DNA from: Minisyncoccia bacterium
GTDB taxonomy: Bacteria > Patescibacteriota > Minisyncoccia > Phycocordibacterales > Phycocordibacteraceae
NCBI GenBank assembly: GCA_038207395.1
Contig: JBBQZW010000002.1
Coordinates: forward strand, 69,752-133,751
Reading direction: 5' to 3'
DNA: 64,000 bases
Positions 10,598 through 38,479 of the stretch are shown piece by piece. The notes below the pieces were generated by a model. That model did not search any database. It worked only from the letters and a program-made list of their open reading frames with translations, and was not told the origin of the DNA. The stretch's first letter is position 1. Every line of letters begins with the position of its first letter. Both the position numbers and the translations under genes were made by a program.

Positions 10598-10780
10598 AAG
10601 AAGAAGGTGAACTAAAAATGAAATTCACGATGCGTTATGCGACTCATTTCATCAGTTCTTCCAGGTACGGTGTGCATCGTAGTCGTAGTATACGCGTGTA
10701 CGCGCGCGTGGGAAGAGGCATTACATTCTTCTGTATTTGTTGCGTGTTCTGCGTCAACCTGGTACTATCCTGTGGACAAC

Positions 10781-10933
10781 ATGCCTAAGCGAACCTACCA
10801 GCCAAAAAAGCGCAAACGCGCTCGAACACACGGATTTCTTGCCCGAACTGCCACTCCTGGCGGTCGTCGCGTGATACTTGCTCGTCGCCGTAAAGGACGC
10901 GCAAGCCTCACGGTCTCCAAAAAAGTCCGTTAA
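10781..10933 (+). CDS. rpmH: 50S ribosomal protein L34
   Basis: [40 protein letters not shown] is the L34 consensus. ATG at 10781; the track ORF is an upstream extension. One-mismatch DnaA box TGTGGACAA immediately upstream (10771-10779). Confidence 0.9.
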
Positions 10934-10965
10934 TTCAATTCCCTAGAGGGAATTAGTGAAATTAT

Positions 10966-11286
10966 ATGCTTCCGCGAACCCTCCGACTCCCCAGGCAGGG
11001 ATTTGAGAACACACGAGGACTCCGTCGTATGACGAGTCCTCATTTCTCTATATCATATGGGTATATTGAGGGATTTGGTGGCTCGGCTATTATTGTTCCC
11101 AAAAAGGCAGTAAAAGGAGCTGTGACACGGCACCTGCTTAAGCGTCGTGTACGTGCTCTTATTCAGCCCTGGAGCAGCTCAGAACAAGTACTTATTATTA
11201 CTGCTCGCTCAGGATCTGCAGACCTTACTCGAGTTGCGCTAAAAGACGAGCTTTCACAAGCACTTACCGCTATACTGTCCACATAA
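10966..11286 (+). CDS. rnpA: ribonuclease P protein component
   Basis: Position after rpmH. Basic about 106 aa protein with an IVPKKAVKGAVTRHLLKRRVR motif typical of RnpA. Confidence 0.8.
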   Translation: MLPRTLRLPRQGFENTRGLRRMTSPHFSISYGYIEGFGGSAIIVPKKAVKGAVTRHLLKRRVRALIQPWSSSEQVLIITARSGSADLTRVALKDELSQALTAILST

Positions 11287-11287
11287 C

Positions 11288-12031
11288 ATGATCCTTTCCT
11301 TCTTTCACACGTACCTATACGTACCAATCTATAACCTCCTCATTTTCTTTGTAGGAATCGTACCAAATGGAGATGTCGGTATTGCTGTTATCGTTGTAAC
11401 GATAGTGGTAAAAATTATCATTACTCCCTTTTCCATTAGCGCAGTCAAAACACAGCGTCGAATGAAGTTCCTTGAGCCCCAAATGAAGGTGATTAAGGAA
11501 AAATATAAGGATAATAAGGAAAAACAGGCACTCGAAACGCTTGCTCTTTATAAAAATAACGGCGTTAAACCGTTTTCAAGTATCTTCGCGAGCTTCCTTC
11601 AACTCCCGGTAATTATCTCTCTCTATCTTGTTTTTAGTCACGAACACCTGGTTGCACCAAACGTATCGATTATCTATAGCTTTATCTCGTTCCCTGCGCA
11701 TATTTCACCGCTCTTCCTTGGCCTTTTCTCAACAACAGGCCACACGATAATTCTTACGGGAATTGCAGTTATTGCTCAGTTCCTCCAGGCATACCTTACT
11801 ATCCCTGTTCCTGAAAAACCCGAGAACGGGGTTGCTACAGGTGCAGAAGAATTCTCACGCGCTCTTTCACTGCAGTCTCGCTTCATTCTCCCTGTTATTA
11901 TCGGTGTTGTTGCGTACGCCTCAGGCGCACTCGCTCTCTACTTTATTACCAGTAGTATCATTGGAATCATCCAAGAGTATTACGTGCGATACGAACTCCG
12001 TTACCTTGAAATGCCTAAAGCGGTTAGTTAA
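11288..12031 (+). CDS. yidC: membrane protein insertase YidC (short form)
   Basis: rpmH-rnpA-yidC synteny. Multi-TM 247 aa with the conserved YidC/Oxa1 helix-1 region and the KEKQ...LYK..GVNP-like motif (ALYKNNGVKPFSS). Confidence 0.8.
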   Translation: MILSFFHTYLYVPIYNLLIFFVGIVPNGDVGIAVIVVTIVVKIIITPFSISAVKTQRRMKFLEPQMKVIKEKYKDNKEKQALETLALYKNNGVKPFSSIFASFLQLPVIISLYLVFSHEHLVAPNVSIIYSFISFPAHISPLFLGLFSTTGHTIILTGIAVIAQFLQAYLTIPVPEKPENGVATGAEEFSRALSLQSRFILPVIIGVVAYASGALALYFITSSIIGIIQEYYVRYELRYLEMPKAVS

Positions 12032-13332
12032 AGGTCGTAACTAAAGAGTGCGCCTGAGTGCTTGTCTGAAAATACAAGAATATCTTCTGAAGGGTCGAGA
12101 GTAAGGTTTACCGCATCTACCTGTATCTTCCCTATTTGATTAGGGTCAAGGACAAGGGTTGCTACGCGTTGAGTTAGATCAATCTTCCAAATACGGTCAG
12201 TAAAAGTAATAGCCCCTTGGTACCAATCATCAGGAAGATTGCCTGAGAGGTTTGTAGGTACTGCGCAGTACACCGAAAGACCATCTGCAGTCCACACACA
12301 CTTCTCACTTAATGTTGATACTGGAAGTGCTGTACTTGCGCGAGTCGCGACATTTAATACGCGGAGCTGGTACACTCCCCCACTCGTGTAGCTATATATA
12401 AGTGACGACCCGTTCAAACTGGGAAGTACTGATAGTCCTCGGAACGCTCCAAGCACACGGCTAAAGTTTCCGGTGGTGCGATTGATTTGAAATGCATACC
12501 CGTCAATTTGAGATGACGGCTTGTTGTTTGCGAAAAGATCTCCCGTGCTTGGGTGCACCGTAATGGCTGACAGAAGCGAAGAGAATAATGTGCGGGAATT
12601 AGACCCGTCAGCACGTGAGAGTGTCCCTACCGACCCTGTACTGCCAGAGAAGAGGGTAAACAGCGTACTTGAACCAACAACGTCTACTTGTGCAAGATCA
12701 TTCTCAAGCAAATACCCGTCTCCCCCGTTTGCGTTAAGTGCGTAGGTGTTAACTGACTCTTTACCTGCACTGGTTGCTAAAAATTGAGCGTATGCGCGCG
12801 TTCCGTCAGGAGTCCACGAAGCTCGCTGGATTCCCGGAAGAGTCTTATTTGAAATACGAGTAAGGGTTCGCGCGTGTGCAATGTATGAGTATACGTTTCC
12901 GCTCGCGCGATCAATGAACCGGACCTCAACGTCAGGGGTAGTTGCGGGAGTAGATATTGGGGTGTTTGTTGATTTTTTAACGGTAGTTGTAGTGGTTGCG
13001 GTTGATGTGGCAGAAAGAGAAACCGTCTCAACGTTTGTGGTAATTGCTGCAGCGTCAGGATTTGGAAGTTGAATAGGAAGCGCTACAGAACCATGTGCAA
13101 CCGGTCCATCAGTAATTTTCACAAAGCGCGGTGCAAGGGTGGTACCGGCATTCTGTATGATGCCATCAGTCGGTAAATCAGTACTTGGTGCAGAAGCACC
13201 ACTTCCTGTATTTGCGAACGGATCCCCCACTGAAAGGTTTGCACTCTTAGGTGCAAAGAATAGGAAGTACACACCAATCAAAATCCCAATCAGAACTACT
13301 ATTCCTGCGATGATAATGAAGAGACGTTTCAT
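12028..13332 (-). CDS. membrane-anchored Thr-rich beta-rich protein (last gene of the T4SS-like cluster)
   Basis: N-terminal TM (FIIIAGIVVLIGILIGVYFLFF), poly-Thr linker, long beta-rich ectodomain. Only 10 nt from the next gene. Confidence 0.4.
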   Translation of the reverse strand: MKRLFIIIAGIVVLIGILIGVYFLFFAPKSANLSVGDPFANTGSGASAPSTDLPTDGIIQNAGTTLAPRFVKITDGPVAHGSVALPIQLPNPDAAAITTNVETVSLSATSTATTTTTVKKSTNTPISTPATTPDVEVRFIDRASGNVYSYIAHARTLTRISNKTLPGIQRASWTPDGTRAYAQFLATSAGKESVNTYALNANGGDGYLLENDLAQVDVVGSSTLFTLFSGSTGSVGTLSRADGSNSRTLFSSLLSAITVHPSTGDLFANNKPSSQIDGYAFQINRTTGNFSRVLGAFRGLSVLPSLNGSSLIYSYTSGGVYQLRVLNVATRASTALPVSTLSEKCVWTADGLSVYCAVPTNLSGNLPDDWYQGAITFTDRIWKIDLTQRVATLVLDPNQIGKIQVDAVNLTLDPSEDILVFSDKHSGALFSYDL

Positions 13333-13342
13333 AGAGATATCA

Positions 13343-14341
13343 CTACGAGTTTGGACATAGTGGAAGCTTAGAGAGTGTTGTGTAACTACTTGCTGGAAGA
13401 GGTTTTGCTAACGTTGCACTCGTTAATTTAGAATCGTCAGTATTGCAATTATTACCCAAAGCACGAAGACCAGGTTGTCTACTAAACGTGTTTGCCGCCG
13501 AAGTACAGGTGGATTTTGAAGTATAGTGAGCGGTATTTTCAATAGTACACTTTTCACCTGTATCATAATTAGTGTCTTGGTAATAGTAATCAACGGTAAA
13601 GTTCCCCTTATCAGTTGTAGGATCGGAGATTGGTTTTGATGGCGTCTGGTCATTTGCCGGATCATACCCACAACATGTGTTCTTGGTATCAGAAATTGCA
13701 CAGCAGGTATCTGAATAATGAGCCCAACCCTTACCTATCGCGCTACAAACCGACGCGGCATCTTTTCCTGAAGGAAGAGGAACAGTTTGTTTTTTAACTA
13801 TAGAACTACATACCTTAGCTTCGGAACTTGTCGAAGGACTACTTACATCGTAATTTGAATTCAACTTGGTTTGAAGCGCACTTACGTCGAGATTAAGTTT
13901 TAGGATATCAGGGTTAATGATGCCAAATACTATCGTTGGGGCCAAAATAAGCACCAAACCCAAAATTGCATTTTGAATACGAGATTTTGCCTTCTCATTT
14001 GAGGTGACGCTCCCTGAGCTTGTCATGATCTGCACACCGGCAACCATTATCATGATCACGGCCAATACCGCACCAGCACCAATCATTATTTTGTAGAGCT
14101 GATTAAGAAAGTTCGGAAGAGTACTTGCTGATACCGCATCCTTAATTCCAGGAAGAGCGGTGAGTGGTTCGAATTTTATTGGTTGAGCACTATCCGAAGC
14201 AGTCGCCGATACTCCTGGCGTGGCTGCAGTGGCTTTATTGTTATTTTGAGCAAAAGTGGTAAATGGAGTGCTGATCAGAAATAGAAAAGCAAAAACTACC
14301 GCTACCTTAGCTGTTAGTCGTAAAAGAGTGCTAGTTTTCAT
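13343..14341 (-). CDS. VirB2/TrbC-like pilin-type protein with Cys-rich C-terminal extension
   Basis: Signal peptide, then two hydrophobic helices (IMIGAGAVLAVIMIMVAGVQI / AILGLVLILAPTIVFGII) in the VirB2/TrbC arrangement. An extension of about 180 aa holds 11 Cys. Confidence 0.4.
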   Translation of the reverse strand: MKTSTLLRLTAKVAVVFAFLFLISTPFTTFAQNNNKATAATPGVSATASDSAQPIKFEPLTALPGIKDAVSASTLPNFLNQLYKIMIGAGAVLAVIMIMVAGVQIMTSSGSVTSNEKAKSRIQNAILGLVLILAPTIVFGIINPDILKLNLDVSALQTKLNSNYDVSSPSTSSEAKVCSSIVKKQTVPLPSGKDAASVCSAIGKGWAHYSDTCCAISDTKNTCCGYDPANDQTPSKPISDPTTDKGNFTVDYYYQDTNYDTGEKCTIENTAHYTSKSTCTSAANTFSRQPGLRALGNNCNTDDSKLTSATLAKPLPASSYTTLSKLPLCPNS

Positions 14342-14343
14342 AA

Positions 14344-15330
14344 TTAAAAGCCAAAGAGATTCGATACCGCCTTACCAAATGTTACGGACAGTGAACTGTT
14401 TGCAGATTGGCCAAGAGACCCAGACGAGCCCGATATATTCAGAATAGCAGTTCCTTGTCCGTTTCCTGCGGGACGAACGGTAATATCTTGCCCGGTCTGG
14501 CTTGGAGAACCATTTACCTCCCAGGTCAGAGATGGAATGCTGGTGAAGTAGTACGGAACTGCTCGATACGTAGCTTCTGCGCTTGTTAATGCGACTGCAC
14601 GGGTAAGAGCGGTATCATACCGAACCCCAAGTAATGGATCATTTTCGTATATACGAATTAGTGGGTCACGGGGAGCTATAAAGACTGAAGCTTGACCAAC
14701 AACGCTGCTGTCTTGGCTTGATACGGTGACTGACAGTGTCGTGTTGCGGTATCGAATAGGGGCGGTGGCAGTAAGTACTGATTTGCCAATACCTGAGGAA
14801 CTTTGAAGAATTTGCTCACCATTTTTCCACGTATATACAAGATTCTGCGAAGGAATCTGAACACCCTTTGACGTTCGCAGGTCAGGTACTGCAATAATGC
14901 GGAGACGTCCCTCGCTACCAATTAACGCAGCCCCCTCATAGAAAGGATGGCTCGTTGAGGTTGGCTCAAGAACGAGCGCGACATCAGCAGGATGAATACT
15001 AATGGATTTACTATACGTCTGGCCATTATTTACTGCAGTAACTTTTATGTTCGTAACCGTGCCAGGCCCACCAACGGCAATACTCGCACTTTCTGAACCA
15101 GTCCCCTTCTGTACAACTACACCATTTACTGAAAATGTAATGGTACTAGCTGACAGATCAATAAGCGTACTCTCTGGGGTAATGGTAACGATTTGATATG
15201 GACGGGGGTAATCAGGATCGATTGTGATAGTTAACGGATCGGTTGTTCCGATTTGAGCATGAGTTACATATACCGCACTCAAGCCAAAAAGAAGGAGGGA
15301 TGTAAAAAGTGTTTTACGAAGCACAGACAT
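14344..15330 (-). CDS. secreted beta-rich protein (T4SS-like cluster)
   Basis: Signal peptide MSVLRKTLFTSLLLFGLSAVYVTHAQ. Ser/Thr-rich, Ig-like composition. Confidence 0.4.
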   Translation of the reverse strand: MSVLRKTLFTSLLLFGLSAVYVTHAQIGTTDPLTITIDPDYPRPYQIVTITPESTLIDLSASTITFSVNGVVVQKGTGSESASIAVGGPGTVTNIKVTAVNNGQTYSKSISIHPADVALVLEPTSTSHPFYEGAALIGSEGRLRIIAVPDLRTSKGVQIPSQNLVYTWKNGEQILQSSSGIGKSVLTATAPIRYRNTTLSVTVSSQDSSVVGQASVFIAPRDPLIRIYENDPLLGVRYDTALTRAVALTSAEATYRAVPYYFTSIPSLTWEVNGSPSQTGQDITVRPAGNGQGTAILNISGSSGSLGQSANSSLSVTFGKAVSNLFGF

Positions 15331-15393
15331 GCCTACAGTATAGCGCCCCTCAGGATATCTTTAGCCACCACACGCCGTACATATGGGTATTAG

Positions 15394-15852
15394 TTATACT
15401 GCCTCCTGGAATTCTTCCCTTGAATTAGTATCGTTTGTCGCAGTGGGTGGTGGTATTTTTTGAGCACCAAAACGTATTCTGTTTGAAGTAGAGGAAGGAA
15501 TCGTCTTCTTTTTTGTTTCACCCATACGACTACCAACAATAACGCCAATAACGCCAGCAGTAATACCTGGAAGTCCATCTAAGAAAGGAACAAGCTCAAG
15601 TATGGTTGATCCAAATACTGAAAAGCTTTTTAAACCAGCTCCTTTCCCACTGAAATAATTAACCTTGCAAAGCGCAAACCAAACACCAAAAATACAGATT
15701 GAAAGGAATGCGATGAATATTGAGAGTGGCGCTGTAACTACCAGTAAGGTTAGAAGGAACTGGAAACCGTCCAAAAGAAGGGCCAGCCCGATCATAAAAG
15801 CGGCAGTGATATTTGAAATCTTGTGTGGAACAGTACCTGATGACTCTGCCAT
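15394..15852 (-). CDS. small polytopic membrane protein (T4SS-like cluster)
   Basis: 152 aa with 3-4 predicted TM helices. Confidence 0.4.
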   Translation of the reverse strand: MAESSGTVPHKISNITAAFMIGLALLLDGFQFLLTLLVVTAPLSIFIAFLSICIFGVWFALCKVNYFSGKGAGLKSFSVFGSTILELVPFLDGLPGITAGVIGVIVGSRMGETKKKTIPSSTSNRIRFGAQKIPPPTATNDTNSREEFQEAV

Positions 15853-15862
15853 ACCAGACTAG

Positions 15863-17686
15863 TTATGAATCCTTCTCCGTCTCAATTCGCTGTTTTTCTC
15901 GTTTTATTGCCAAAAGCTGTGAGGGGTCAGAGGTAATAATTTGATCTTCGGTATACGATGCAACAATTTTAATTGCCACATGCTTAAGACCTGCAAAGAA
16001 GAGTCCCTCGCCCACTCCTGATTCGAGGAGAAGAAATTTCTCCTCGTCGGTAAGGTTAAATGTTTCCTTGAGAACTTCGATAGTCGTTGGAGATTGCTTC
16101 AGAAGAAGTTGGATAGAAGAGTTGGTGAGAATGGGACGTCCGTATGGGCTGCGCAAGAAGTCTTCAACGTCTTGGGTGACGGTAGCGAGTCCGAGGAAAT
16201 ACTTACGACCACGCTTTGCAAGACCAAATAAGAACGATGCTGTGTCTTCAGACTTCATCATCCACCACGCCTCATCAATGATTAAGAGGCGCTTCTTAAG
16301 CTCTGCCCGAACGGCGTTCCAGATGAAGTGCGTAACAATGTACATTGCCACTGGTTTAAGCTCATCCTCCATGTCACGCACAGAAAACACAATGAATTGC
16401 TTGTTAATATCGACGTTAGTGGGACGATTAAGGAAACCTGACCAGGTACCACGAGTGTATTTCGTAAGACGTGTCACGAGTGACTGTGAGCCTTCCATAC
16501 CTGAAAGTACATTCTCAAAGTCAGAGAGAAGTGGAGGCTCCATACCATTAAAGTTTGAATCCCCCGTAATGTCTTTCAAGGCATATGTTTCAGAAATGGC
16601 ACGGTCAATGATTGCATCCTCTTCGGGAGTAAGACCACCAAGCATGATACGGAAGAGTCCGACCAGGTTAATAATGTTAGAGCGAAGAATGTCAGTGGGT
16701 TCCTCATCTTCTTTGACCATAGGAAGGTCAAAAGGATTGATATGGTGTTCGCTCGAAAGAGAGATGTTGAACATTCGACCGCCGGTCGCTTGTGCCAGGT
16801 ATTCGTATTCACGCTCTGGGTCGATAACAATAACGTCTGTGTCAAACATGAGTGAGCGTAGAATCTCAAGCTTAACGGCATATGACTTACCTGAACCAGA
16901 CTTTGCAAACACTACCGAGTTATAGTTTTCAAGCGAGAAACGGTCAAAAAGAATAAGTGATGCGTTATGACGATTAATCCCGTAGAGAATACCGCGGTCA
17001 CTTGAGAGGTCGAATGATACAAAAGGGAAAATACTTGATAATGGGGATGAATTGAGCTTGTTATGGACTTCAAGTTCGTCAGTGGCAATAGGAAGTGTAG
17101 AGCGGAAGCCTTGTGCTTGCTCGAAGAGTGCTGGTTTTGTATACACTAACTTCGAATCAAGAATTCCTCTGACATCACCCTCAATCTTGTCGAGTTCTTC
17201 CTTTGAGCTTGCGTAGAGCGTCATGTATAGACCAACGTCAAATAGACGTTCCTGCGCTTGCTGGAGATTATCACGAAGGGTTTCCAGATCCTGATATGCG
17301 GTGTCGAGCATAGGATCACGCACCAATCCTTTCGCTTCCCTGTCTGAAATCTGACTTTGCACTTCTGCCACCTTACGCTGAAAATTCTTTAACGCGTCCG
17401 CTGTATCTACGGGGTGAACAAAGATGGAAACATCAAATACCTTATCAAGGTTAATAATTGGGGTGAACCAACTGTCTGTGAGATAGCGGGGGTATGAAAT
17501 AGTGTAGAACGTACGGGAAACCTTCTCCCCGAGCTCTATTTCTTTTGACCCAACCTTAAGTGCCGCTGGCGCTATTGCATCAGCAAGCTCAAGCTTCCCT
17601 GCGGCATATATATCTTTAGGTAGTACGGGGGCAATCTTAGGCCCGTCATCGTTGTTCCCGCGGTTTAAAAAATCTAAAAGTGCCAT
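15863..17686 (-). CDS. VirB4/TrbE/CagE-family type IV secretion ATPase (ATPase portion)
   Basis: Walker A VVFAKSGSGKSY, Walker B RLLIIDEAWWMM, TVTQDVEDF motif. YTISYPRYL-type N-terminal region characteristic of VirB4/PrgJ/TcpF. Confidence 0.8.
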   Translation of the reverse strand: MALLDFLNRGNNDDGPKIAPVLPKDIYAAGKLELADAIAPAALKVGSKEIELGEKVSRTFYTISYPRYLTDSWFTPIINLDKVFDVSIFVHPVDTADALKNFQRKVAEVQSQISDREAKGLVRDPMLDTAYQDLETLRDNLQQAQERLFDVGLYMTLYASSKEELDKIEGDVRGILDSKLVYTKPALFEQAQGFRSTLPIATDELEVHNKLNSSPLSSIFPFVSFDLSSDRGILYGINRHNASLILFDRFSLENYNSVVFAKSGSGKSYAVKLEILRSLMFDTDVIVIDPEREYEYLAQATGGRMFNISLSSEHHINPFDLPMVKEDEEPTDILRSNIINLVGLFRIMLGGLTPEEDAIIDRAISETYALKDITGDSNFNGMEPPLLSDFENVLSGMEGSQSLVTRLTKYTRGTWSGFLNRPTNVDINKQFIVFSVRDMEDELKPVAMYIVTHFIWNAVRAELKKRLLIIDEAWWMMKSEDTASFLFGLAKRGRKYFLGLATVTQDVEDFLRSPYGRPILTNSSIQLLLKQSPTTIEVLKETFNLTDEEKFLLLESGVGEGLFFAGLKHVAIKIVASYTEDQIITSDPSQLLAIKREKQRIETEKDS

Positions 17687-17698
17687 ATAAAGTAGTAG

Positions 17699-18331
17699 CT
17701 ATTGCTGAGTATACGGTATAGGGTTCTCCATATCCCCCAAATTAAAAGATCGGTACAGAAGCTCGATAATCTCTTCTGTGCCTAGTGGTACGGCACGAAG
17801 ACCTGAAGAGGCTAACCCTCCTGCCACAAGAGCCATACGTTGCTCGAGCTGAATTCGTGTTTCTTCGAATGATTGATTATCTGCGGCAGTGTTTGCTGAG
17901 CGACTTTTTAAGAAAGATAATCCTCCAGCTGCCTGAGCAATAGAAACCGTTGTGTATGGAACCACCACATAGAAGGTTTTGGTCATAATATCCGCCCCCT
18001 CAATAAAGTTGCGAATGAAGGCAATGTATTCCCGAAGCTGGATGCGCATAAGCTCACTCGTTTGTTTGTCTAAACGCTCCTGGAGCAAATTCAAATACGG
18101 GCGGATATCTGTTTTACGTGAATGTACAACTATCTGTACTGAAAAGTCGAGTGTATTGAGAAAGTTTTGGAACCCGCCGATAATGGCACGTTGCTCGTCT
18201 TCAGACTTAAGTGCAAAGTTAAGAGAAGAACAAGCCATAATACCGCGGTACCCACCATTTTTAAGAATAATCACACCATTGCGAACTTCTTCAACAGGTA
18301 CAAAGTCTTGTGTTGGTTTTGAGCTTGCCAT
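17699..18331 (-). CDS. VirB4 N-terminal domain-like protein (separated from the ATPase ORF by one in-frame TAG)
   Basis: VPVEEVRNGVIILKNGGYRGIMACSSLNFALKSEDEQ...QIVVHSRK matches the VirB4/CagE N-terminal pattern. The stop at 17699-17701 is in frame with the ATG at 17686, only 4 sense codons further on. Confidence 0.5.
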   Translation of the reverse strand: MASSKPTQDFVPVEEVRNGVIILKNGGYRGIMACSSLNFALKSEDEQRAIIGGFQNFLNTLDFSVQIVVHSRKTDIRPYLNLLQERLDKQTSELMRIQLREYIAFIRNFIEGADIMTKTFYVVVPYTTVSIAQAAGGLSFLKSRSANTAADNQSFEETRIQLEQRMALVAGGLASSGLRAVPLGTEEIIELLYRSFNLGDMENPIPYTQQ

Positions 18332-18337
18332 AGAGAG

Positions 18338-18751
18338 TTATTTGGTAGAAATGTTTCGATCCTGAATATCAAGCGAAAGTGCTAAATCATGCAATTTGTT
18401 ACCTGAAAGCGTGAGTTTTTCGCGCACAGGCATCACGGCCTTTATTTGGATCGGTGCTGCATTCTCATCTTTCTTTTCTTTTCGCCACAGATATAACTGG
18501 CTGTTGGTGTAAAAAGAGAATCCCGCGCCTAAAATATCAACAAAGCTCTTATTATTTATCTTATAAAAAGAAAGTGCGATGGCCAATGACATTACCGGGA
18601 TGGCAAGTAGTGCTGCGAATAGGAATGGTAGATAGAGAAAGATAATAACGGAAAGCCCGATACCTCCGCCCATAAATACAAATTGTTTCCAGGTGAGCGG
18701 ACCAAAAATCTTATCTTCAACCTCAATAAACTGTGGTACTTGGTACTCCAT
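18338..18751 (-). CDS. PrgI/VirB3-like two-TM protein
   Basis: 137 aa with two adjacent TM helices after a short N-terminus (PLTWKQFVFMGGGIGLSVIIFLYLPFLFAALLAIPVMSLAIALSFY), as in PrgI/VirB3. Immediately upstream of the VirB4 homologue. Confidence 0.5.
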   Translation of the reverse strand: MEYQVPQFIEVEDKIFGPLTWKQFVFMGGGIGLSVIIFLYLPFLFAALLAIPVMSLAIALSFYKINNKSFVDILGAGFSFYTNSQLYLWRKEKKDENAAPIQIKAVMPVREKLTLSGNKLHDLALSLDIQDRNISTK

Positions 18752-18799: not shown

Positions 18800-19345
18800 C
18801 TAATGGCCACCTCCACTAGGTTTCTTTTTTGGGGCGCCCCCTCCTCCTCCCCCACCTGCACCAAGTACTTTTTCCGAACCCGCCTTTAGTCCGCTGAACG
18901 AGAGTGCAATAGTTGCGACAAAAGCACCCAAGGCCAATTTCGCACCTCCCCACAGAAATGTACCGACCTTCTTAAAAAGGCCACCGAATTTTGTTTCTTT
19001 GCCAGAATGTATTGTGGTAGACCCAATTCCTGATGGAGGCTGACCTCCGCTACCCACTTCCGATGGAGTTGTAGTGGGGTTTGATACTGAATTTATAGTT
19101 TCTGTGGTCTGTTTTGGGGTAGATTCAGAACTTGCTGACTCCCTTGGCCCTATTGTCTCAGGAAAACTCTCATCTGAACCTAATGTATCTAAGTGTTCTT
19201 TAATTTCTGCAATCTTTTCCTCAGTGGAAATTACGTCATTAATAATCTCATTATCATTAACTGCCTCAATTTTTTGCACCTCACTCTCAGTCATTGGAGT
19301 AAGGTTTTCTGAAGCACTTGCATTAATTTTTCGTAAAGATTCCAT
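18800..19345 (-). CDS. hypothetical protein with acidic N-terminus, C-terminal TM and Gly-rich tail
   Basis: Part of the co-directional cluster. No recognisable family. Confidence 0.4.
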   Translation of the reverse strand: MESLRKINASASENLTPMTESEVQKIEAVNDNEIINDVISTEEKIAEIKEHLDTLGSDESFPETIGPRESASSESTPKQTTETINSVSNPTTTPSEVGSGGQPPSGIGSTTIHSGKETKFGGLFKKVGTFLWGGAKLALGAFVATIALSFSGLKAGSEKVLGAGGGGGGGAPKKKPSGGGH

Positions 19346-19356
19346 AGTACGCTTTC

Positions 19357-20160
19357 TTATATAGTATTCCGATACGGGTCAGTTTGGTATGGAGTATCAG
19401 CTTGCACGGGGCGCAACGGTCGTTCTTCTAGAGGTTTTGACTCGGTGATAATAGGTTTAATTTCTGGAGTTGAAAACACTGGATACTGAACTGGTGGTGG
19501 TGACGTAAATGGAACTGAAGAAGTCTGAAATGAGCGAGCAGGAGTTGTCTGCATAGGATGCTGTATTGCTGCCATATCACTACTCATTGTTCTAATGGCA
19601 GGAAATTCCATAGCTGGAGGGTTAGAAACAATCGATGGGATTTCTCGATTTATAAGATTGTAAGCGGGTGGCGGCACGGGGATAGGTTTAATTTCTTGTC
19701 GTGCTTCAACACTTAATACTGGTACCTGAGGCGCAGGCGGAACACTCGTTTGGGTGGGAGGTGCCTGTGGTGGTGTGGGAGCGATGTTAAAAGAAGGATC
19801 ATACTCAGCCTCAGGCTCATCCTCTTCAGGGGTATTCAACGTATCGGCTCCCTCTCGGATTCGCTTTTGTAGTGGTTGAAAGATCTCTTCATTAACTTTT
19901 TTAACAATACCCGTCGCATCATTTGCTCCGATCCCGAGATCAAGAAGGCCTTGATAAAATGTGGCCGGATCAACTAAGCCGAGTAACATAAATCCAAGGT
20001 CTTCAGCAATTTTACCGGTCACATCAACATGCAAGTTGTAGCTAGACTGAACGCTTTTTATCACTTGTATAGTTGCATCGCTTCCCATCGCCTCACGAAC
20101 AATGCGGGGTGCGGTTTTATAGGCTTGAATAAATTGATCCCTGTTCAACAATTGAGGCAT
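19357..20160 (-). CDS. proline-rich hypothetical protein
   Basis: 267 aa. Second half is Pro-rich (PTPPQAPPTQTSVPPAPQVP...). Confidence 0.4.
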   Translation of the reverse strand: MPQLLNRDQFIQAYKTAPRIVREAMGSDATIQVIKSVQSSYNLHVDVTGKIAEDLGFMLLGLVDPATFYQGLLDLGIGANDATGIVKKVNEEIFQPLQKRIREGADTLNTPEEDEPEAEYDPSFNIAPTPPQAPPTQTSVPPAPQVPVLSVEARQEIKPIPVPPPAYNLINREIPSIVSNPPAMEFPAIRTMSSDMAAIQHPMQTTPARSFQTSSVPFTSPPPVQYPVFSTPEIKPIITESKPLEERPLRPVQADTPYQTDPYRNTI

Positions 20161-20161
20161 G

Positions 20162-22459
20162 CTATGACCAGTATGCCATACCCGCAGGGCTTGTTAAATA
20201 ATCAACAGTAGTTTTGGTGCCATACTTTTCAATTTGAGCCTTAATTCTCTTTGCTGCTGAATCATCAATTTCATTACGCTCCTGTATTGCTGCAAGTATT
20301 TTTGGCGTTAGGACCCGAGCAGCTGCTTCTGATTCCAACACCTCTGATTTAAGTCGCGCTGCTTGTTTAGGGTTCAGTTTTGCTATCTTTGCTACAGCCG
20401 CAGCCACATCAGTTGGGCTTGTAGCTTCTGCAAACGCAGTATTTGTTAGTTCAACAGGATCAAACTGTCGTACTTTGCGGGCAACACCCGGGCTTAGTTT
20501 CCCACCCCTAAGAAGATCGTCTCGTTGTGCGTTAGTGAGAGAGCTTGTTATAAAATCATCAGTAAGGAGGGTTGAAGGACTATTTTCTAGGTCTTTAGCG
20601 GAGTATTTTTTAATACGATCCTTGATGGTTTTCTGTGCAACACCCTTCTCGGCTGGTGTTGTAGTCGTGCTTGTGATAATTGCTTGTTGGTCACGTATAT
20701 CCTTAAAGCGAGCTTCTTTAATTACTCCCTGCTGCTGTACGGTAAATGCTCCCCCATCTTTTACTAATGCAGCAAACTTCTCTGGAGACAGGTTCTGTAC
20801 AAGTGCATCAAGATCTTTCCCTGACTTCTTCATTAGATCTAGTTCTTCTAACTCCTTGGTGCTTAAACGCTCAAGAATTTCCGCGACACGGTTATCCTTT
20901 GAAGTGCTTTTAGGTAGCGATAACGCAGAATCAAGTTCTGACCTAAGATTTGCCTTGCGTCCAATCTCTCCAAACACCTTATCTCGAGCCTCTTTCTCAG
21001 CCTTCTTCTCCTTAAAGGATGCTCCGCTACCAAAACGAGCATTTTGACCCGCCTTAAGAGTTCCTGATATTGCCTTATCAATAGGGCTATTAGAGATAAA
21101 GTTACGTACTCCCTTAGGTGCCTTTCCGACCAAAGATTCATATTTCTTCTGTGCATATACGCTACCCTTGCCGATTGTCGACCTCCCTGCGAAACCACCC
21201 GCAGCACCATACGTACCTAAAACTATTTTTTTAGAAAAACCTATTGCTCCTGCGGCTCCTGCTGCTCCCAAACTTTTGGCAGCCACAAGCGAAGCAACTA
21301 AGAAGCCAATGACAATCGTAAAGATCATTATAGTTCCCATTGCTGAAGCATCAGGGCTCGTAATTGCACCAGCTAAACCAACAGCGGTTGTGCCCGAACC
21401 GCCCGTGATGAAACCATCAGTAATTTTTAAACTTATAAAAAGAAGAAGGAATAAAACGGGTGCAAAGAATGCTTGAGAAATAAGCTTGCTCCACCAGTCA
21501 TTTGCAAATCTGCGAAGTGGAGGAATTGCCATACCTGCAAATCCAATTGGAGCAGAAACCATAAGAAAACTTAAAACAACAACTCGAATAACTAACATAA
21601 TTGCAGCCGCAAACATAACGATGGCACCAATAGTTGAAAAAAGAGCCAAACCTATAAAGGTCACTGCCTCAACACCAAGGTTTCCGTTTACCTTAAAGAG
21701 TGACGCAAGACCGGTGGACTGCATTATGTGACCCGCTATACCGTAATCAACAATACACTTCGCGTCCTGTTCAGAAATCCCGACAGCACTAAATATACCT
21801 CCGCTAATATCTAAGCAAGGGTCAGTATTTGCTTGAGAATAAAATACAGAACTAAGTGCATTTGAAGTGTCTATAACAGCCTCTGCAGCAAACAAACTAA
21901 AGTTCATAAGAACAGCGAAGATAAGTAGCTGAGGTATTGCTTTTCGGGTAGGAAAACTATGGAGATCCAATATTGTTGCGAGACCCATAAAAATAAAACC
22001 AAACAAAAGAAGCATGTTTCCTATATCACGCATGATCCCCCATGCGAGCAAGAGACCAGGGGAATTACCGATTAAATTACCAAATTGAAAAACTGTTTTA
22101 ATTACTACCCAGTTCAAAAGTGCTCCGGCTACTCCCAATAAAAGATTTGCAAACGTTAATATAAATCCCGCAACAGTCTTTAAAAGACATGAACCTAACG
22201 TAAAGAAACTATCACAACTGTTAGTTGCGTTGCCCGCTGGGGGAGGTGTGCTATTGGAGGCTGGTTTCGCATTTGGATCAGCGCTTCCTAAATCAGCTTG
22301 TCCGGCTGAAGTACTTGCAACATTGGTCGGAGAAGAGGTGCTAACTTTTTGAGGTGCAGAAGATTGGGCACTAGCGCTCGAAGGTTGATACGCGAAAAAT
22401 AAAATGAGTAAGAAAATACCACCTACTACTGAAAGACTTCTGCGCGTAAATCTCGCCAT
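20162..22459 (-). CDS. VirB6/TrbL-like polytopic membrane protein with long charged C-terminal domain
   Basis: Signal peptide plus Ser/Pro-rich stretch, then at least 6 TM helices over about 300 aa, then a roughly 330 aa hydrophilic tail. This architecture is typical of VirB6/TrbL-type channel proteins. Confidence 0.45.
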   Translation of the reverse strand: MARFTRRSLSVVGGIFLLILFFAYQPSSASAQSSAPQKVSTSSPTNVASTSAGQADLGSADPNAKPASNSTPPPAGNATNSCDSFFTLGSCLLKTVAGFILTFANLLLGVAGALLNWVVIKTVFQFGNLIGNSPGLLLAWGIMRDIGNMLLLFGFIFMGLATILDLHSFPTRKAIPQLLIFAVLMNFSLFAAEAVIDTSNALSSVFYSQANTDPCLDISGGIFSAVGISEQDAKCIVDYGIAGHIMQSTGLASLFKVNGNLGVEAVTFIGLALFSTIGAIVMFAAAIMLVIRVVVLSFLMVSAPIGFAGMAIPPLRRFANDWWSKLISQAFFAPVLFLLLFISLKITDGFITGGSGTTAVGLAGAITSPDASAMGTIMIFTIVIGFLVASLVAAKSLGAAGAAGAIGFSKKIVLGTYGAAGGFAGRSTIGKGSVYAQKKYESLVGKAPKGVRNFISNSPIDKAISGTLKAGQNARFGSGASFKEKKAEKEARDKVFGEIGRKANLRSELDSALSLPKSTSKDNRVAEILERLSTKELEELDLMKKSGKDLDALVQNLSPEKFAALVKDGGAFTVQQQGVIKEARFKDIRDQQAIITSTTTTPAEKGVAQKTIKDRIKKYSAKDLENSPSTLLTDDFITSSLTNAQRDDLLRGGKLSPGVARKVRQFDPVELTNTAFAEATSPTDVAAAVAKIAKLNPKQAARLKSEVLESEAAARVLTPKILAAIQERNEIDDSAAKRIKAQIEKYGTKTTVDYLTSPAGMAYWS

Positions 22460-22462
22460 AGG

Positions 22463-23938
22463 TTATGTACCGTTTGAACTTGTAACACCACAATTTTTTG
22501 AAAGAGTTATCATCTTGTCATATAGATTTTTTGAACCCGATGTATCCTGACTCTGTATACCTGCCTCAGCTATCTCTGATGCATTAGGGATTTCTGGTGA
22601 TGAGAGATATGACTGGTAGTTAGCAAGTGCGGAGGTTATTACGGTGCCCTTAGAAACCGAGGTGCTTTGGGAAGCTCCCTCAACTTCACTTTTAATTGAT
22701 GCAATTTTTGTTAGCGCCGCATCCCCTTTTGCCACACCAGCTGTAGCTTGATCAATTACAGCAGAGACATCAGGTCGTACACCGCAGGTAGTTTGAGCAT
22801 TAGTTGCTGCGCTTAAAATTTTCTGCCAGTTATCACGGAAAGAAGATACGTTTGTCTCGTCATTTTTGATGTTTTGAATAACTCCACTAGCAAGACTTGA
22901 GTTAACCGCATCATACTGAGTTGGGCTCGTTGCTGCTTCCAAAGGAGAACGTCCTCCGCCAGCAGAAGGCTGTGATGCACCAAGAAGTCCTCCTGCTCCC
23001 AGAACTTGGTTTACTAACTGTCCCAGCAACGCTCCAACAATTTCGTTGATAGAGTCAGCAAGTTCAAGCTGGCGAATTCCCGAGCCAAGACTGTTCTCAA
23101 GCTGACTCTCAATAACTGAGCCAGGGGTTCGTACTGCGTTGAAGAGACATTTCTCTGTCTTAGACAGTGCTACAGAAGCATCACCACCAGAGGTAGACTT
23201 ATTACAACTACCTCTCCATGGAAGAAATCCCTTACCCCACCCAAGCTCAGCTTTGCGCTGCTGTGCTGCAGAATCAATCTGCGCAAAGAGCTGATTGCTT
23301 GCAAGCTGGTATGCGCCGAATGGATTATTCGCAGGATTCTGACTTGCTGATAGAAAGGCACTAATACCTCCTTGATTGAAGTCACCATTTAAGAATGCTT
23401 TAGGGTCCTTGCTTTGCTGATCTAGAGTGTAGTTCAGACCCCAACTACTAGTAGTACGATAATACTCTTCACGAAGCTTCTGGCTTATTTGATCTTGAAA
23501 AGGAGACTTTATATCAAATCCAGTTGCACTAACAACAGTATTATTTAGGTTATTAATAAAATCATCTGCTATAGCGTCTCCTAAGTATTGAAGATTACTC
23601 CTCAAATCACTTACAAAAGAAGGCGATCCGCTAAAGCCCGAATTAATCCAATTCACCGTACTTCGTGTCAGAGATTGGATAGTTAGTTTCGCAACAGTCC
23701 ATGCAAGACCGTTCAATGCGTTTAAAATAACGGTTTGAGTGACTGTACTTGCACCTGTTGCAACGACTCCCGCAACAACGGCAGGGTTAATTTCAAATGA
23801 GAGACCTCCAAACTGAGCGTGTGCTTTAGGTACTGAAACAATACTAAAAGGTGTGTATGACGCAGTAATTGCAATAACAAGACTGATTGCAACAGCTCTG
23901 ACTGAAATATTCTTTAGCCGGTTAGTTTTGTAGATCAT
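22463..23938 (-). CDS. secreted hypothetical protein (T4SS-like cluster)
   Basis: Signal-anchor at the N-terminus. 491 aa, Ser/Ala/Gln-rich. Confidence 0.4.
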   Translation of the reverse strand: MIYKTNRLKNISVRAVAISLVIAITASYTPFSIVSVPKAHAQFGGLSFEINPAVVAGVVATGASTVTQTVILNALNGLAWTVAKLTIQSLTRSTVNWINSGFSGSPSFVSDLRSNLQYLGDAIADDFINNLNNTVVSATGFDIKSPFQDQISQKLREEYYRTTSSWGLNYTLDQQSKDPKAFLNGDFNQGGISAFLSASQNPANNPFGAYQLASNQLFAQIDSAAQQRKAELGWGKGFLPWRGSCNKSTSGGDASVALSKTEKCLFNAVRTPGSVIESQLENSLGSGIRQLELADSINEIVGALLGQLVNQVLGAGGLLGASQPSAGGGRSPLEAATSPTQYDAVNSSLASGVIQNIKNDETNVSSFRDNWQKILSAATNAQTTCGVRPDVSAVIDQATAGVAKGDAALTKIASIKSEVEGASQSTSVSKGTVITSALANYQSYLSSPEIPNASEIAEAGIQSQDTSGSKNLYDKMITLSKNCGVTSSNGT

Positions 23939-38473: not shown

Positions 38474-38479
38474 AATTGA

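What the first reader, a model, noticed from the sequence alone, without database searches (positions are those of the whole stretch)
13343..14341. Pilin-like (VirB2/TrbC-type) protein fused to a cysteine-rich C-terminal module
VirB2/TrbC pilins are normally about 100-130 aa. This protein carries a signal peptide plus the characteristic hydrophobic helix pair. It then continues for about 180 residues with 11 cysteines, several as CC or C-x-C pairs (TCCAIS, TCCGYD), and Tyr/Asp/Thr-rich segments. It could be a pilin with a built-in adhesin or tip domain, or a different secreted two-TM protein altogether.
Basis: inference. Interest (0 to 1): 0.5.

Follow-up and report, generated by a model that had tools for sequence, protein, structure and literature searches.

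The report
Secretion-system pilin with variable cysteine-rich head
This gene from an ultrasmall, probably symbiotic bacterium encodes a pilin of a known type IV secretion system that also carries a 180-residue, fast-evolving, probably disulfide-bonded outer domain of unknown fold, which may be how the cell recognises surfaces or hosts.

Summary
Window 13343-14341 (minus strand) encodes a 332-aa protein with a Sec signal peptide, a variable spacer, a two-helix hydrophobic hairpin and a 182-aa C-terminal region with 10 cysteines (not 11).

The hairpin matches Pfam PF18895 T4SS_pilin above its threshold. The gene lies inside a Patescibacteria (Parcubacteria/Paceibacteria-type) type IV secretion operon (PrgI, TrsD-like, VirB4) next to yidC-rnpA-dnaA-dnaN.

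In 79 related pilins the C-terminal extension has a median of 176 aa and is 5.5% Cys. The Cys count is even in 77 of 79.

In relatives whose VirB4 is 90-95% identical, the pilin core is 56-81% identical. The extension is only 21-32% identical or cannot be aligned. Orthologues in the same slot (135 and 158 aa) lack it altogether.

Best reading: a VirB2-like pilin whose outward-facing C-terminus carries an accessory, hypervariable, disulfide-bonded surface domain, probably for recognition or adhesion. Whether a pilus forms and whether the domain stays attached were not tested. This is a new variant of a known kind.

The parts
13343..14341 (-). Whole gene: 332-aa T4SS pilin with a C-terminal cysteine-rich ectodomain (stop codon 13343-13345).
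   Evidence: ORF and translation. Exact match P0001 in NCBI. PF18895 above threshold.
14249..14341 (-). Residues 1-31: Sec-type signal peptide, with predicted cleavage after TFA (A31).
   Evidence: Hydrophobic stretch 5-31. A31 is invariant or nearly invariant in the alignments. In short orthologues the conserved FVPL motif follows the equivalent alanine directly. The cleavage site itself is inferred.
14174..14248 (-). Residues 32-56: variable, low-complexity N-terminal spacer, predicted disordered and extracellular.
   Evidence: pLDDT below 50 over 27-57. Mean pairwise identity is 23% over residues 1-56. This stretch does not align at DNA level with the closest relative.
13892..14173 (-). Residues 57-150: conserved pilin core. 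It comprises the F-x-P-L-T-x-L-P-G-I motif, TM1 (about 82-108), the basic loop SNEKAKSR, TM2 (about 121-147) and the INPDIL motif.
   Evidence: PF18895 at 1.6e-10 over residues 73-141. AF2 helices 75-107 and 112-142. Mean pairwise identity is 66%. This is the only part of the gene that aligns with L005 at DNA level, 14130-13881 at 74%.
13829..13891 (-). Residues 151-171: Ser/Thr-rich flexible linker.
   Evidence: pLDDT below 50 over 156-168. Identity is 23%.
13646..13828 (-). Residues 172-232: module A, a small alpha/beta domain with 6 Cys (C178, C199, CC213-214, CC223-224).
   Evidence: pLDDT 95-97. The module occurs without module B in 9 sequences. C213 and C223 are lost together in the 8-Cys variants.
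13610..13645 (-). Residues 233-244: Pro/Thr/Asp-rich loop between the modules.
   Evidence: pLDDT dips to about 55-61 here. Its length varies in the alignments.
13346..13609 (-). Residues 245-332: module B, a beta-hairpin plus helix plus strand domain with 4 Cys (C265, C279, C299, C329). It ends in the motif LP-x-C.
   Evidence: pLDDT about 90-95. The four Cys are invariant in A3. The module occurs without module A in 8 sequences.
14344..15330 (-). Upstream partner gene, 328 aa, secreted and beta-rich, in no known family. It precedes the pilin in nearly every relative.
   Evidence: Homologue found in 79 of 81 loci directly upstream of the pilin. It is 50-75% identical in relatives. No significant Pfam, NCBIfam or PDB hit.
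12028..13332 (-). Downstream partner gene, 434 aa, with an N-terminal membrane anchor, in no known family. It follows the pilin in nearly every relative.
   Evidence: Homologue found in 76 of 81 loci directly downstream. It is 48-75% identical in relatives whose locus holds the gene. No Pfam, NCBIfam or PDB hit.
15394..15852 (-). 152-aa multi-pass membrane protein between virB4 and the 328-aa gene. It evolves fast.
   Evidence: Detected in 24 of 81 loci at E below 1e-5. It is 27-55% identical where VirB4 is 84-95%.
15863..17686 (-). VirB4-type T4SS ATPase, C-terminal P-loop part, 607 aa.
   Evidence: NCBIfam conju_CD1110 at 3e-114, above cut-off. Pfam P-loop_TraG at 6.9e-26.
17699..18331 (-). 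TrsD/TraC-like protein equivalent to the N-terminal part of VirB4, 210 aa.
   Evidence: NCBIfam VirB4_plasma, CD1110 and TrsD hits below cut-off. The orthologue in L001 carries PF26593 TraC-like.
18338..18751 (-). PrgI family (VirB3-like) membrane protein, 137 aa.
   Evidence: Pfam PF12666 PrgI at 2.6e-10, above cut-off.
18800..24942 (-). Upstream part of the same co-directional gene block: 181-aa, 267-aa, 765-aa polytopic (candidate VirB6/PrgH-like, not verified), 491-aa and 335-aa (TSP3 repeat) genes.
   Evidence: ORFs and translations. Same order and sizes in L001. The only Pfam hit in this block is TSP3_bac, on the 335-aa protein; the 181-, 267- and 765-aa proteins gave none, and the 491-aa protein gave none.

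Best explanation
The gene encodes the single VirB2-like pilin (Pfam T4SS_pilin family) of a chromosomal, conjugation-derived type IV secretion system in a Parcubacteria/Paceibacteria-type Patescibacterium.

Proposed mechanism, with each step marked as shown or inferred:
1. Inferred from sequence: the Sec signal peptide is cleaved after A31. The two hydrophobic helices insert as a hairpin, with the basic loop (K116, K118, R120) in the cytoplasm and both termini outside.
2. Shown statistically, chemistry inferred: the 182-residue C-terminal region folds outside the cell into two small modules held by about five disulfides, three in module A and two in module B. One pair is probably C213-C223.
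3. Inferred by homology with VirB2/TraA pilins: the VirB4-VirB3-VirB6-type machinery pulls the hairpins out of the membrane. It stacks them into a pilus or a short surface conduit. The C-terminus then points outward, so each subunit displays one roughly 20-kDa head on a flexible Ser/Thr linker.
4. Shown: the head is accessory and hypervariable. It is absent from orthologues in the same slot. Its modules are shuffled. It is replaced in close relatives whose machinery is 90-95% identical.
5. Inferred: the head is therefore the surface-recognition or adhesion part, a host or substrate specificity determinant. It plays the role that arrays of variable small pilins are proposed to play in Saccharimonadia.
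For: Pilin identity:
- PF18895 scores 41.3 bits against a cut-off of 26.6.
- All 35 homologues hit PF18895, and 25 of 35 also hit TrbC/VirB2 at E<=0.01.
- AF2 predicts a hairpin, 75-107 and 112-142.
- Among the weak Foldseek hits to the helical part are the A. pernix conjugation pilus (TM 0.64) and the A. tumefaciens T-pilus (TM 0.59).

Context:
- PrgI, a TrsD-like protein and VirB4 (3e-114) lie in the same operon.
- The order prgI-trsD-virB4-152aa-328aa-pilin-434aa is kept in 68-79 of 81 loci.
- The operon is next to yidC-rnpA-dnaA-dnaN, as published for Patescibacteria T4SS (PMC12102498).

Outside location and disulfides:
- The loop charge fits a cytoplasmic loop with both termini outside.
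- Among 79 distinct pilins the extension has a median of 176 aa and is 5.5% Cys. Neighbouring T4SS proteins are 0.4% Cys.
- The Cys count is even in 77 of 79, and both exceptions contain masked bases. The binomial chance of that parity is about 5e-21 (my arithmetic).
- Module A alone carries 6 Cys and module B alone carries 4.
- C213 and C223 are lost together.
- AF2 models the domain with high confidence, pLDDT 90-97.

Accessory and hypervariable:
- Mean pairwise identity is 66% in the core, against 26% in module A and 22% in module B.
- Relatives with VirB4 at 90-95% have a C-terminal region that is 21-32% identical or cannot be aligned.
- DNA colinearity with L005 breaks exactly over 13880-13334.
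- Short orthologues of 135 and 158 aa occupy the same slot.
- One short form (P0048) has a long-form nearest neighbour at 81% core identity.

The C-terminus faces outward in known pili. Residues 111-116 of the pED208 F-pilin were chosen as surface-exposed on the basis of the pilus structure (PMC10790687).
Against: - No pilus has been seen for any Patescibacteria T4SS. Reviews speak only of a 'potential to elaborate conjugative pili' (PMC12857230).
- Membership of TrbC/VirB2 proper is below the Pfam threshold.
- The fold matches to solved pilins are not significant, E above 1. A two-helix hairpin is a simple shape.
- I could not inspect model coordinates, so the disulfide geometry is unverified.
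- No Dsb- or VKOR-type oxidoreductase was found among the annotated genes of the window.
- Whether a 20-kDa head on every subunit is sterically compatible with VirB2-type helical packing was not modelled.
- The strongly conserved INPDIL-KLNL boundary could instead be a processing site.
Confidence: 0.55

Rival explanations
1. Membrane-anchored surface protein with no pilus. The VirB2-like hairpin stays in the cytoplasmic membrane as a channel or stator component of the T4SS, as VirB2 is needed even in Gram-negative systems that make no pili. It simply anchors the disulfide-rich ectodomain in the wall zone, where that domain contacts peptidoglycan, an S-layer or the partner cell.
For: - Gram-positive-type T4SSs normally lack pili (PMC12102498, PMC12857230).
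- No pilus has been observed in this group.
- The flexible 20-residue linker fits a tethered ectodomain.
- The topology argument is identical.
- The conserved secreted and anchored neighbours of 328 and 434 aa could form a wall-spanning complex with it.
Against: - The core is highly conserved, at 66% identity. It includes extracellular motifs at both ends of the hairpin (FxPLTxLPGI and INPDIL). This suggests protein-protein packing beyond a simple anchor.
- Family-level homology is to polymerising pilins.
- The ectodomain is dispensable in orthologues. It is therefore not a structural part of the channel.
Confidence: 0.25
2. Pro-domain or released factor. The C-terminal region is cut off at the conserved INPDIL/KLNL boundary during maturation, as the C-terminus of RP4 TrbC is trimmed. 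This would leave a canonical small pilin. The cysteine-rich piece would be either a chaperone-like pro-domain or a secreted, diffusible protein.
For: - The boundary motif just after TM2 is invariant or nearly so: P144, I146, L147, L156.
- Short orthologues end 10-30 residues after it. A core-only product is therefore functional.
- P-type pilins undergo C-terminal processing (established knowledge of TrbC/TraF).
Against: - No TraF- or S26-like or other protease is encoded in the operon.
- A pro-domain would not be expected to be modular, hypervariable and repeatedly exchanged.
- Some homologues also carry Cys-bearing insertions at the N-terminus of the core. This fits surface display at both termini better than processing.
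Confidence: 0.12
3. Polymorphic toxin-like cargo. A conserved N-terminal delivery part is fused to a variable C-terminal toxin or effector, which is handed to the partner cell by the T4SS.
For: A conserved N-terminus with a hypervariable, cassette-like C-terminus is the hallmark architecture of polymorphic toxins.
Against: - The downstream gene is conserved (48-75% identity in relatives whose locus holds it) and is not a variable immunity gene.
- The domains are small, rich in paired cysteines and lack any catalytic-domain match. Disulfide-dependent folds are poorly suited to action in a reducing cytoplasm.
- Orthologues without the domain exist, with no change to the neighbouring genes.
Confidence: 0.04

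Closest known systems
Patescibacteria T4SS VirB2-like pilins (Pfam PF18895 T4SS_pilin), for example the essential pilin array in the T4SS locus of Ca. Southlakia epibionticum ML1 (PMC10633639; PMC12102498)
   Same: Same Pfam family, scored above threshold. Same kind of operon: monoderm, conjugation-derived T4SS with VirB4, TrsD and PrgI, no relaxase or coupling protein nearby, and located next to dnaA. Same signal-peptide-plus-hairpin core.
   Different: The published descriptions treat these pilins as small proteins, often in arrays of 2-11 divergent paralogues. Here there is one pilin gene, and it carries a 182-aa modular cysteine-rich ectodomain. The variability lies in the fused head rather than in paralogue number. 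I found no description of this fusion in the searchable literature.
TrbC/VirB2/TraA conjugative pilins (Pfam PF04956; T-pilus 8exh; F-type pili)
   Same: Signal peptide, two hydrophobic helices joined by a short basic loop, both termini outside, and encoded with VirB3/VirB4. The Pfam match is below threshold but in the correct register.
   Different: It is about three times longer. It scores below the family threshold. It has a C-terminal globular domain, so head-to-tail cyclisation as in VirB2/TrbC is implausible. The organism is a monoderm.
Archaeal Ced-type conjugation-like pili (A. pernix pilin, 8dfu)
   Same: A VirB2-like hairpin pilin working in an envelope without an outer membrane. It gave the best TM-score normalised by target length (0.64) among the listed Foldseek PDB matches to the full-length model.
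   Different: The match is not significant (E 3.7). Those pilins are about 80 residues and have no fused domain.
Type IV pilins (T4P major pilins)
   Same: By analogy only: a hydrophobic helical assembly element buried in the filament core, plus a surface-exposed, variable globular head stabilised by disulfide.
   Different: Unrelated family. There is no class III (prepilin peptidase) signal, and the assembly element is one N-terminal helix rather than a hairpin. The genome has separate T4P genes (PilB and PilC at 46133-49235).
Bartonella Trw T4SS with multiple variant VirB2/VirB5 copies
   Same: A T4SS lacking a coupling protein, in which pilus-component variability is proposed to serve binding to different host surfaces (PMC12857230).
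   Different: In Trw the variation comes from tandem gene amplification. Here it comes from exchange of fused C-terminal modules on a single pilin gene.

Membership tests
Pfam PF18895 T4SS_pilin (Patescibacteria-type VirB2-like pilin) | Match to the family HMM above the curated gathering score | tested here: met
   41.3 bits against a cut-off of 26.6, E 1.6e-10, residues 73-141 covering profile positions 3-70 of 71. All 35 homologues also match.
Pfam PF18895 T4SS_pilin (Patescibacteria-type VirB2-like pilin) | Signal peptide followed by two hydrophobic helices joined by a short polar or basic loop | tested here: met
   Hydropathy segments 5-31, 82-108 and 121-147, with the loop SNEKAKSR. AF2 helices 75-107 and 112-142.
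Pfam PF18895 T4SS_pilin (Patescibacteria-type VirB2-like pilin) | Encoded in a T4SS cluster near virB4 | tested here: met
   VirB4 lies 1.5 kb upstream in the same operon. This linkage is conserved in 68 of 81 loci.
Pfam PF18895 T4SS_pilin (Patescibacteria-type VirB2-like pilin) | Small size (about 100-175 aa), with little beyond the hairpin | tested here: not met
   This protein is 332 aa with a 182-aa extension. Short family members of 100-175 aa are listed and shown. This is the respect in which it is a variant.
Pfam PF18895 T4SS_pilin (Patescibacteria-type VirB2-like pilin) | Polymerises into a T4SS pilus | not testable with these tools
   No multimer modelling or imaging was available. 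This has not been shown for any member of the family (PMC12857230).
Pfam PF04956 TrbC/VirB2 conjugative pilin | Match to the family HMM above the gathering score | tested here: not met
   17.2 bits against a cut-off of 27.9, E 0.006. 25 of 35 homologues reach E<=0.01, best 2e-5. A profile search of PDB sequences finds no pilin.
Pfam PF04956 TrbC/VirB2 conjugative pilin | VirB2-like helical hairpin fold | tested here: inconclusive
   A hairpin is predicted. Foldseek hits to 8dfu (TM 0.64) and 8exh (TM 0.59) have E 3.7-5.0, which is not significant.
Pfam PF04956 TrbC/VirB2 conjugative pilin | Maturation by C-terminal trimming and/or head-to-tail cyclisation (P-type and T-pilins) | not testable with these tools
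   No TraF- or S26-like peptidase was found in the operon by Pfam or NCBIfam. The variable extensions at both termini argue against cyclisation, which is an inference.
Type IV pilin (T4P) | Class III signal peptide (G|F/M-xxx-E) cleaved by a prepilin peptidase, and a single N-terminal assembly helix | tested here: not met
   The sequence has a Sec-type signal ending TFA|Q and two helices. No T4P pilin family appears in the Pfam or NCBIfam results.
Polymorphic toxin with a C-terminal variable toxin domain | A variable immunity gene immediately downstream, and a recognisable toxin domain | tested here: not met
   The downstream 434-aa gene is conserved, at 48-75% identity in relatives whose locus holds it, and is present in 76 of 81 loci. 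There is no toxin domain by Pfam, NCBIfam or fold search.

The most novel reading that the evidence does not exclude
Paceibacteria-type Patescibacteria build a conjugation-type (VirB2-like) filament or conduit in which every subunit carries a roughly 20-kDa, disulfide-knotted head of a previously unseen fold. Heads are swapped as cassettes between close relatives. This makes the pilin itself the host-range determinant of the episymbiont. It would be a convergent counterpart of type IV pilin heads or phage receptor-binding proteins, and an alternative to the pilin-paralogue arrays of Saccharimonadia.
Probability: 0.3. Interest if true: 0.75.

Novelty: new variant of a known kind. Interest (0 to 1): 0.52.

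Why it matters
The T4SS of Patescibacteria is essential for epibiotic growth in the one strain where it has been tested (PMC10633639). What it transports is unknown, and so is how it recognises a partner.

A pilin with an accessory, rapidly exchanged, extracellular head is a concrete candidate for the recognition element. It sits in the most conserved slot of the operon, right at the replication origin.

It gives testable handles:
- the head can be expressed alone;
- its disulfide map is predicted in part (C213-C223);
- its variation can be correlated with host taxa in metagenomes.

For T4SS structural biology, a VirB2-type pilin carrying a globular domain has not, to my knowledge, been described. 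It constrains how such subunits can pack.

It may also help explain a published observation. PF18895 proteins dominate freshwater-specific clusters of predicted structures (preprint 10.1101/2025.04.23.650224). One conserved core attached to many unrelated heads could produce that pattern.

Tried and rejected
- The plus-strand reading of the interval has no ORF.
- Foldseek against afdb50 was unavailable. AlphaFold-database analogues of the head could therefore not be sought.
- A profile search of PDB sequences with the family alignment gave only chance hits.
I treat this as a lead, not evidence.
- The exhaustive HMMER search with the head gave 18 representatives. P0040 (731 aa, 11 repeats, 1 Cys) is a low-complexity artefact. 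P0046 (174 aa, starts with L) and P0036 are fragments. No complete protein has the head without the pilin.
- Exact-sequence look-ups of the window protein gave no contig record and no name or accession. The organism is placed only by its relatives, which are Parcubacteria, Paceibacterota and Kaiserbacteria MAGs.
- A local pilin HMM found no second pilin gene in the 64-kb window.
- No Dsb, VKOR or thioredoxin-like gene was found among the annotated genes of the window.
- PDB sequence searches of the two conserved flanking proteins found nothing.
- The promoter and terminator scan was at or below the shuffled expectation.
- The polymorphic-toxin and type IV pilin readings were rejected on tested features (see the membership test).
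- The short/long nearest-neighbour analysis is contaminated by truncated database fragments. Only the two short forms verified in genomic context, P0048 and P0078, are used as evidence.
Full report
**1. The observation**

Window 13343-14341 holds an ORF on the minus strand, ATG to TAG, 332 aa. The plus-strand frame is full of stops.

The protein has these features:
- A hydrophobic N-terminus (residues 5-31) ending in TFA|Q.
- Two strongly hydrophobic stretches, about 82-108 and 121-147, separated by the basic loop SNEKAKSR.
- A Ser/Thr/Asp/Tyr-rich C-terminal region of 182 residues.

That region holds 10 cysteines: 178, 199, 213, 214, 223, 224, 265, 279, 299 and 329. The quoted TCCAIS and TCCGYD motifs are correct.

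The gene starts 2 nt after the stop of the upstream gene and ends 10 nt before the start of the downstream gene. The identical protein exists in NCBI on a 195-kb contig.

**2. What the N-terminal half is**

- Residues 73-141 match Pfam PF18895 (T4SS_pilin) at 41.3 bits, above the cut-off of 26.6.
- PF04956 (TrbC/VirB2) matches in the right register but below threshold, E 0.006.
- NCBIfam gives a sub-threshold match to the Mbov_0395 pilin-like conjugal transfer family.
- All 35 homologues from the first search hit PF18895, and 25 of 35 also hit TrbC at E<=0.01.
- AlphaFold2 on a 35-sequence alignment predicts helices 75-107 and 112-142 joined by a four-residue turn.

Foldseek against the PDB finds nothing significant. 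The weak helical hits include the A. pernix conjugation pilus (8dfu, TM 0.64) and the A. tumefaciens T-pilus (8exh, TM 0.59). A two-helix hairpin is too simple for this to count as proof. I therefore rate the fold test inconclusive and rest the pilin call on the family HMM plus the genomic context.

**3. Context**

The gene is the second-to-last of a co-directional block of 12 genes. In order of transcription on the minus strand:
- a 335-aa TSP3-repeat protein;
- a 491-aa protein;
- a 765-aa polytopic membrane protein (candidate VirB6-like, not verified);
- 267-aa and 181-aa proteins;
- PrgI/VirB3 (PF12666);
- a TrsD-like N-terminal VirB4 piece;
- the VirB4 ATPase (NCBIfam CD1110 family, 3e-114);
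- a 152-aa membrane protein;
- a 328-aa secreted protein;
- the pilin;
- a 434-aa anchored protein.

Directly beyond lie yidC, rnpA, dnaA and dnaN.

A related genome (L001, GCA_964404565.1) has the same 12 genes in the same order next to the same origin genes. In 81 related loci, the order prgI-trsD-virB4-(152aa)-328aa-pilin-434aa is found in 68-79 loci. Most of the shortfall probably reflects contigs that end inside the locus, though L082 shows that the virB4 block can also be absent.

This is the Patescibacteria T4SS described by Quinonero-Coronel et al. 2025 (PMC12102498). It is monoderm, MPF-FATA-like, has VirB2-like pilins near virB4, usually lacks a relaxase, and often sits near dnaA. 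In the one experimental study, on Ca. Southlakia epibionticum, the T4SS and its pilin array are essential for epibiotic growth (PMC10633639; reviewed in PMC12857230).

The loci come from MAGs labelled Parcubacteria, Paceibacterota, Kaiserbacteria and Patescibacteria. A local HMM finds no second pilin gene in the 64-kb window.

**4. What the C-terminal half is**

It has no Pfam or NCBIfam match.

An exhaustive HMMER scan of 1.84 billion representative proteins with residues 151-332 gave only 18 hits at E<=0.001:
- The complete proteins among them are all pilin fusions.
- One hit, P0040, is a low-complexity artefact.
- Two hits, P0036 and P0046, are fragments.

AlphaFold2 models the region confidently: pLDDT 90-97 in the full-length model, and a mean of 83 for the domain alone. 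It forms two small alpha/beta modules after a disordered Ser/Thr linker (151-171):
- Module A: residues 172-232, 6 Cys.
- Module B: residues 245-332, 4 Cys.

**5. Family-wide pattern**

From the 81 loci I extracted 79 distinct pilins:
- The extension after the hairpin has a median of 176 aa. It is at least 100 aa in 72 of 79.
- Cysteine makes up 5.5% of these extensions. The figure is 0.4% in the neighbouring T4SS proteins and 0.9% in long ORFs of the same loci.
- The Cys count is even in 77 of 79: 4, 6, 8, 10, 12, 14 or 16. Both exceptions contain masked bases. Under random parity this has a probability of about 5e-21 (my arithmetic).

Modules occur separately. HMMs of A and B find 33 sequences with A+B, 9 with A only and 8 with B only. 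A further 77 pilins match neither module HMM; most of those drawn from the loci carry other Cys-rich extensions, as one search shows for the locus set. A-only forms carry 6 Cys and B-only forms carry 4.

In the 8-Cys variants (P0003, P0006, P0008), C213 and C223 are missing together. This points to a C213-C223 bond.

Modules A and B never occur outside pilin ORFs in the window or the loci. Some homologues also carry 4-11 Cys in an insertion between the signal peptide and the core.

Caveat: the locus sample was drawn with patterns and a full-length query derived from long forms. It therefore over-represents them.

**6. The head is accessory and hypervariable**

- Mean pairwise identity in alignment A1 is 66% for the core (57-150). 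It is 26% for module A, 22% for module B, and 23% for both the N-terminal region and the linker.
- Relatives whose VirB4 is 90-95% identical have a 328-aa protein at 65-75% and a pilin core at 56-81%; the 434-aa protein is 63-75% in those whose locus holds it. Their C-terminal region is only 21-32% identical, or cannot be aligned at E above 0.01.
- At DNA level the closest relative, L005, aligns over virB4, the 328-aa gene, the pilin core (14130-13881) and the 434-aa gene from its first base (13333). It does not align over 13880-13334, over the signal-peptide and spacer region, or over the 152-aa gene. That relative's pilin (P0017) has a different module set.
- A profile search with the core alone recovers many short PF18895 pilins of 100-175 aa. 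Two of them, P0048 (135 aa) and P0078 (158 aa), occupy the orthologous slot: a 331/348-aa gene, the pilin, a 414/425-aa gene, then yidC and dnaA. They end 10-30 residues after the INPxIL motif.
- P0048's nearest core relative is a long form, at 81% identity.

The head has therefore been gained, lost and exchanged repeatedly on a conserved pilin.

**7. Mechanism**

*Shown.* Family membership, operon context, the two-helix core, the confidently folded modular Cys-rich C-terminal region, even Cys parity, and hypervariability together with dispensability.

*Inferred from sequence.*
- Sec export and cleavage after A31.
- Hairpin insertion with the K/R loop inside and both termini outside.
- Oxidative folding of the head outside the cell.

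*Inferred by homology.*
- Extraction and polymerisation of the hairpins by the VirB4/VirB3/VirB6-type machinery.
- An outward-pointing C-terminus, as in F-type pili. In the pED208 F-pilin, residues 111-116 were chosen for labelling as surface-exposed on the basis of the pilus structure (PMC10790687).

*Rough estimate from remembered F-pilus geometry, not computed with a tool.* About 2.5-3 A of axial rise per subunit and an outer radius of about 43 A give roughly 700 A2 per subunit at the surface, and about 1000 A2 at a radius of about 63 A. That is about the footprint of a 20-kDa domain. One head per subunit looks tight but feasible on a 20-residue linker.

*Functional inference.* The head is a recognition or adhesion element. 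It is extracellular, dispensable for the core function, and the fastest-evolving part of a highly conserved operon.

**8. Rivals**

1. The hairpin never polymerises and merely anchors a surface ectodomain (confidence 0.25). This is hard to separate from the main reading without imaging.
2. The head is cleaved at the conserved INPDIL/KLNL boundary and acts as a pro-domain or a released factor (0.12). No protease is encoded in the operon, and the modular hypervariability fits poorly.
3. A polymorphic-toxin-like cargo (0.04). The downstream gene is conserved rather than immunity-like, and no toxin domain was found.

**9. Comparison and novelty**

The protein is a member of PF18895. It works like a VirB2/TrbC pilin but fails that family's own threshold.

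It differs from every described member I could find. The literature searches and reading of PMC12102498, PMC10633639 and PMC12857230 turned up no mention of fused or cysteine-rich domains on these pilins. Here the pilin carries a large, modular, disulfide-type head of unmatched fold. The diversity sits in that head, not in paralogue arrays.

The nearest analogies are functional:
- type IV pilin heads, from an unrelated family;
- the variant VirB2/VirB5 copies of Bartonella Trw.

I rate it a new variant of a known kind, with moderate interest. It is ordinary within its own clade, but it appears undescribed and gives a concrete candidate for partner recognition by an essential yet functionally obscure secretion system.

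Noticed in passing
window 7874-12031 and 12028-24942: The whole 12-gene T4SS block abuts yidC-rnpA (plus strand) and dnaA-dnaN, so it lies at the replication origin. The same layout is found in L001 and L083. This matches the published remark that Patescibacteria T4SS genes often lie near dnaA (PMC12102498).
   Followed up: partly
window 14344-15330 and 12028-13332: The two genes flanking the pilin are a 328-aa secreted, beta-rich protein and a 434-aa N-terminally anchored protein. They are present in 79 and 76 of 81 related loci and are 48-75% identical in relatives whose locus holds them. Neither has a Pfam, NCBIfam or PDB-sequence match. They look like dedicated pilin partners of unknown function.
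   Followed up: partly
window 15394-15852: A 152-aa multi-pass membrane protein lies between virB4 and the 328-aa gene. It evolves almost as fast as the pilin head: 27-55% identity where VirB4 is 84-95%. It cannot be aligned at DNA level with L005.
   Followed up: partly
window 15863-18331: VirB4 is encoded as two genes: a 210-aa TrsD/TraC-like N-terminal piece and a 607-aa P-loop ATPase. The relatives show the same split.
   Followed up: no
L083 2475-6293: In a related genome the VirB4 gene is 1272 aa and carries an intein with a LAGLIDADG homing endonuclease (precomputed Pfam Intein_splicing and LAGLIDADG_3).
   Followed up: no
L082 6566-9686: In this genome the small-protein, 331-aa, pilin and 414-aa genes sit next to yidC and dnaA, but without prgI-trsD-virB4 upstream. 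Instead the upstream genes are PGK, recJ, RNase H, comEC, sodA and a lactamase_B-fold gene. In the window those genes lie about 40 kb away, at 55-62 kb. This suggests a rearrangement or deletion separating the pilin trio from the ATPase.
   Followed up: no
L005, L006, L028, L029, L034, L043, L046, L048, L052 (pilin ORFs): Some homologues carry an additional Cys-bearing insertion (4-11 Cys) between the signal peptide and the conserved FxPL motif. Both outward-facing termini of the hairpin can therefore be decorated.
   Followed up: partly
window 18800-19345: A 181-aa operon protein has one hydrophobic segment and a C-terminal tail of GAGGGGGGGAPKKKPSGGGH. It has no family match.
   Followed up: no
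window 46133-49235: Type IV pilus genes pilB (T2SSE, 2e-121) and pilC (T2SSF) are present. The organism therefore has a separate T4P system besides the T4SS.
   Followed up: no
window 59471-62449: ComEC appears split. The Competence/DUF4131 part is at 59471-61066 and a Lactamase_B-fold part at 61574-62449. An Fe/Mn superoxide dismutase gene on the opposite strand (60927-61523) overlaps the 3' end of the first part. The same arrangement is seen in L082.
   Followed up: no
window 34366-35442 and 38236-39264: A XerC/D-type tyrosine recombinase gene and a cluster of four tRNA genes: Arg-TCG, Gly-GCC, Pro-TGG and Gly-TCC.
   Followed up: no
literature (10.1101/2025.04.23.650224): A preprint on predicted-structure clusters reports that freshwater-specific clusters are dominated by PF18895. 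The many unrelated heads attached to one pilin core seen here could be one reason.
   Followed up: no
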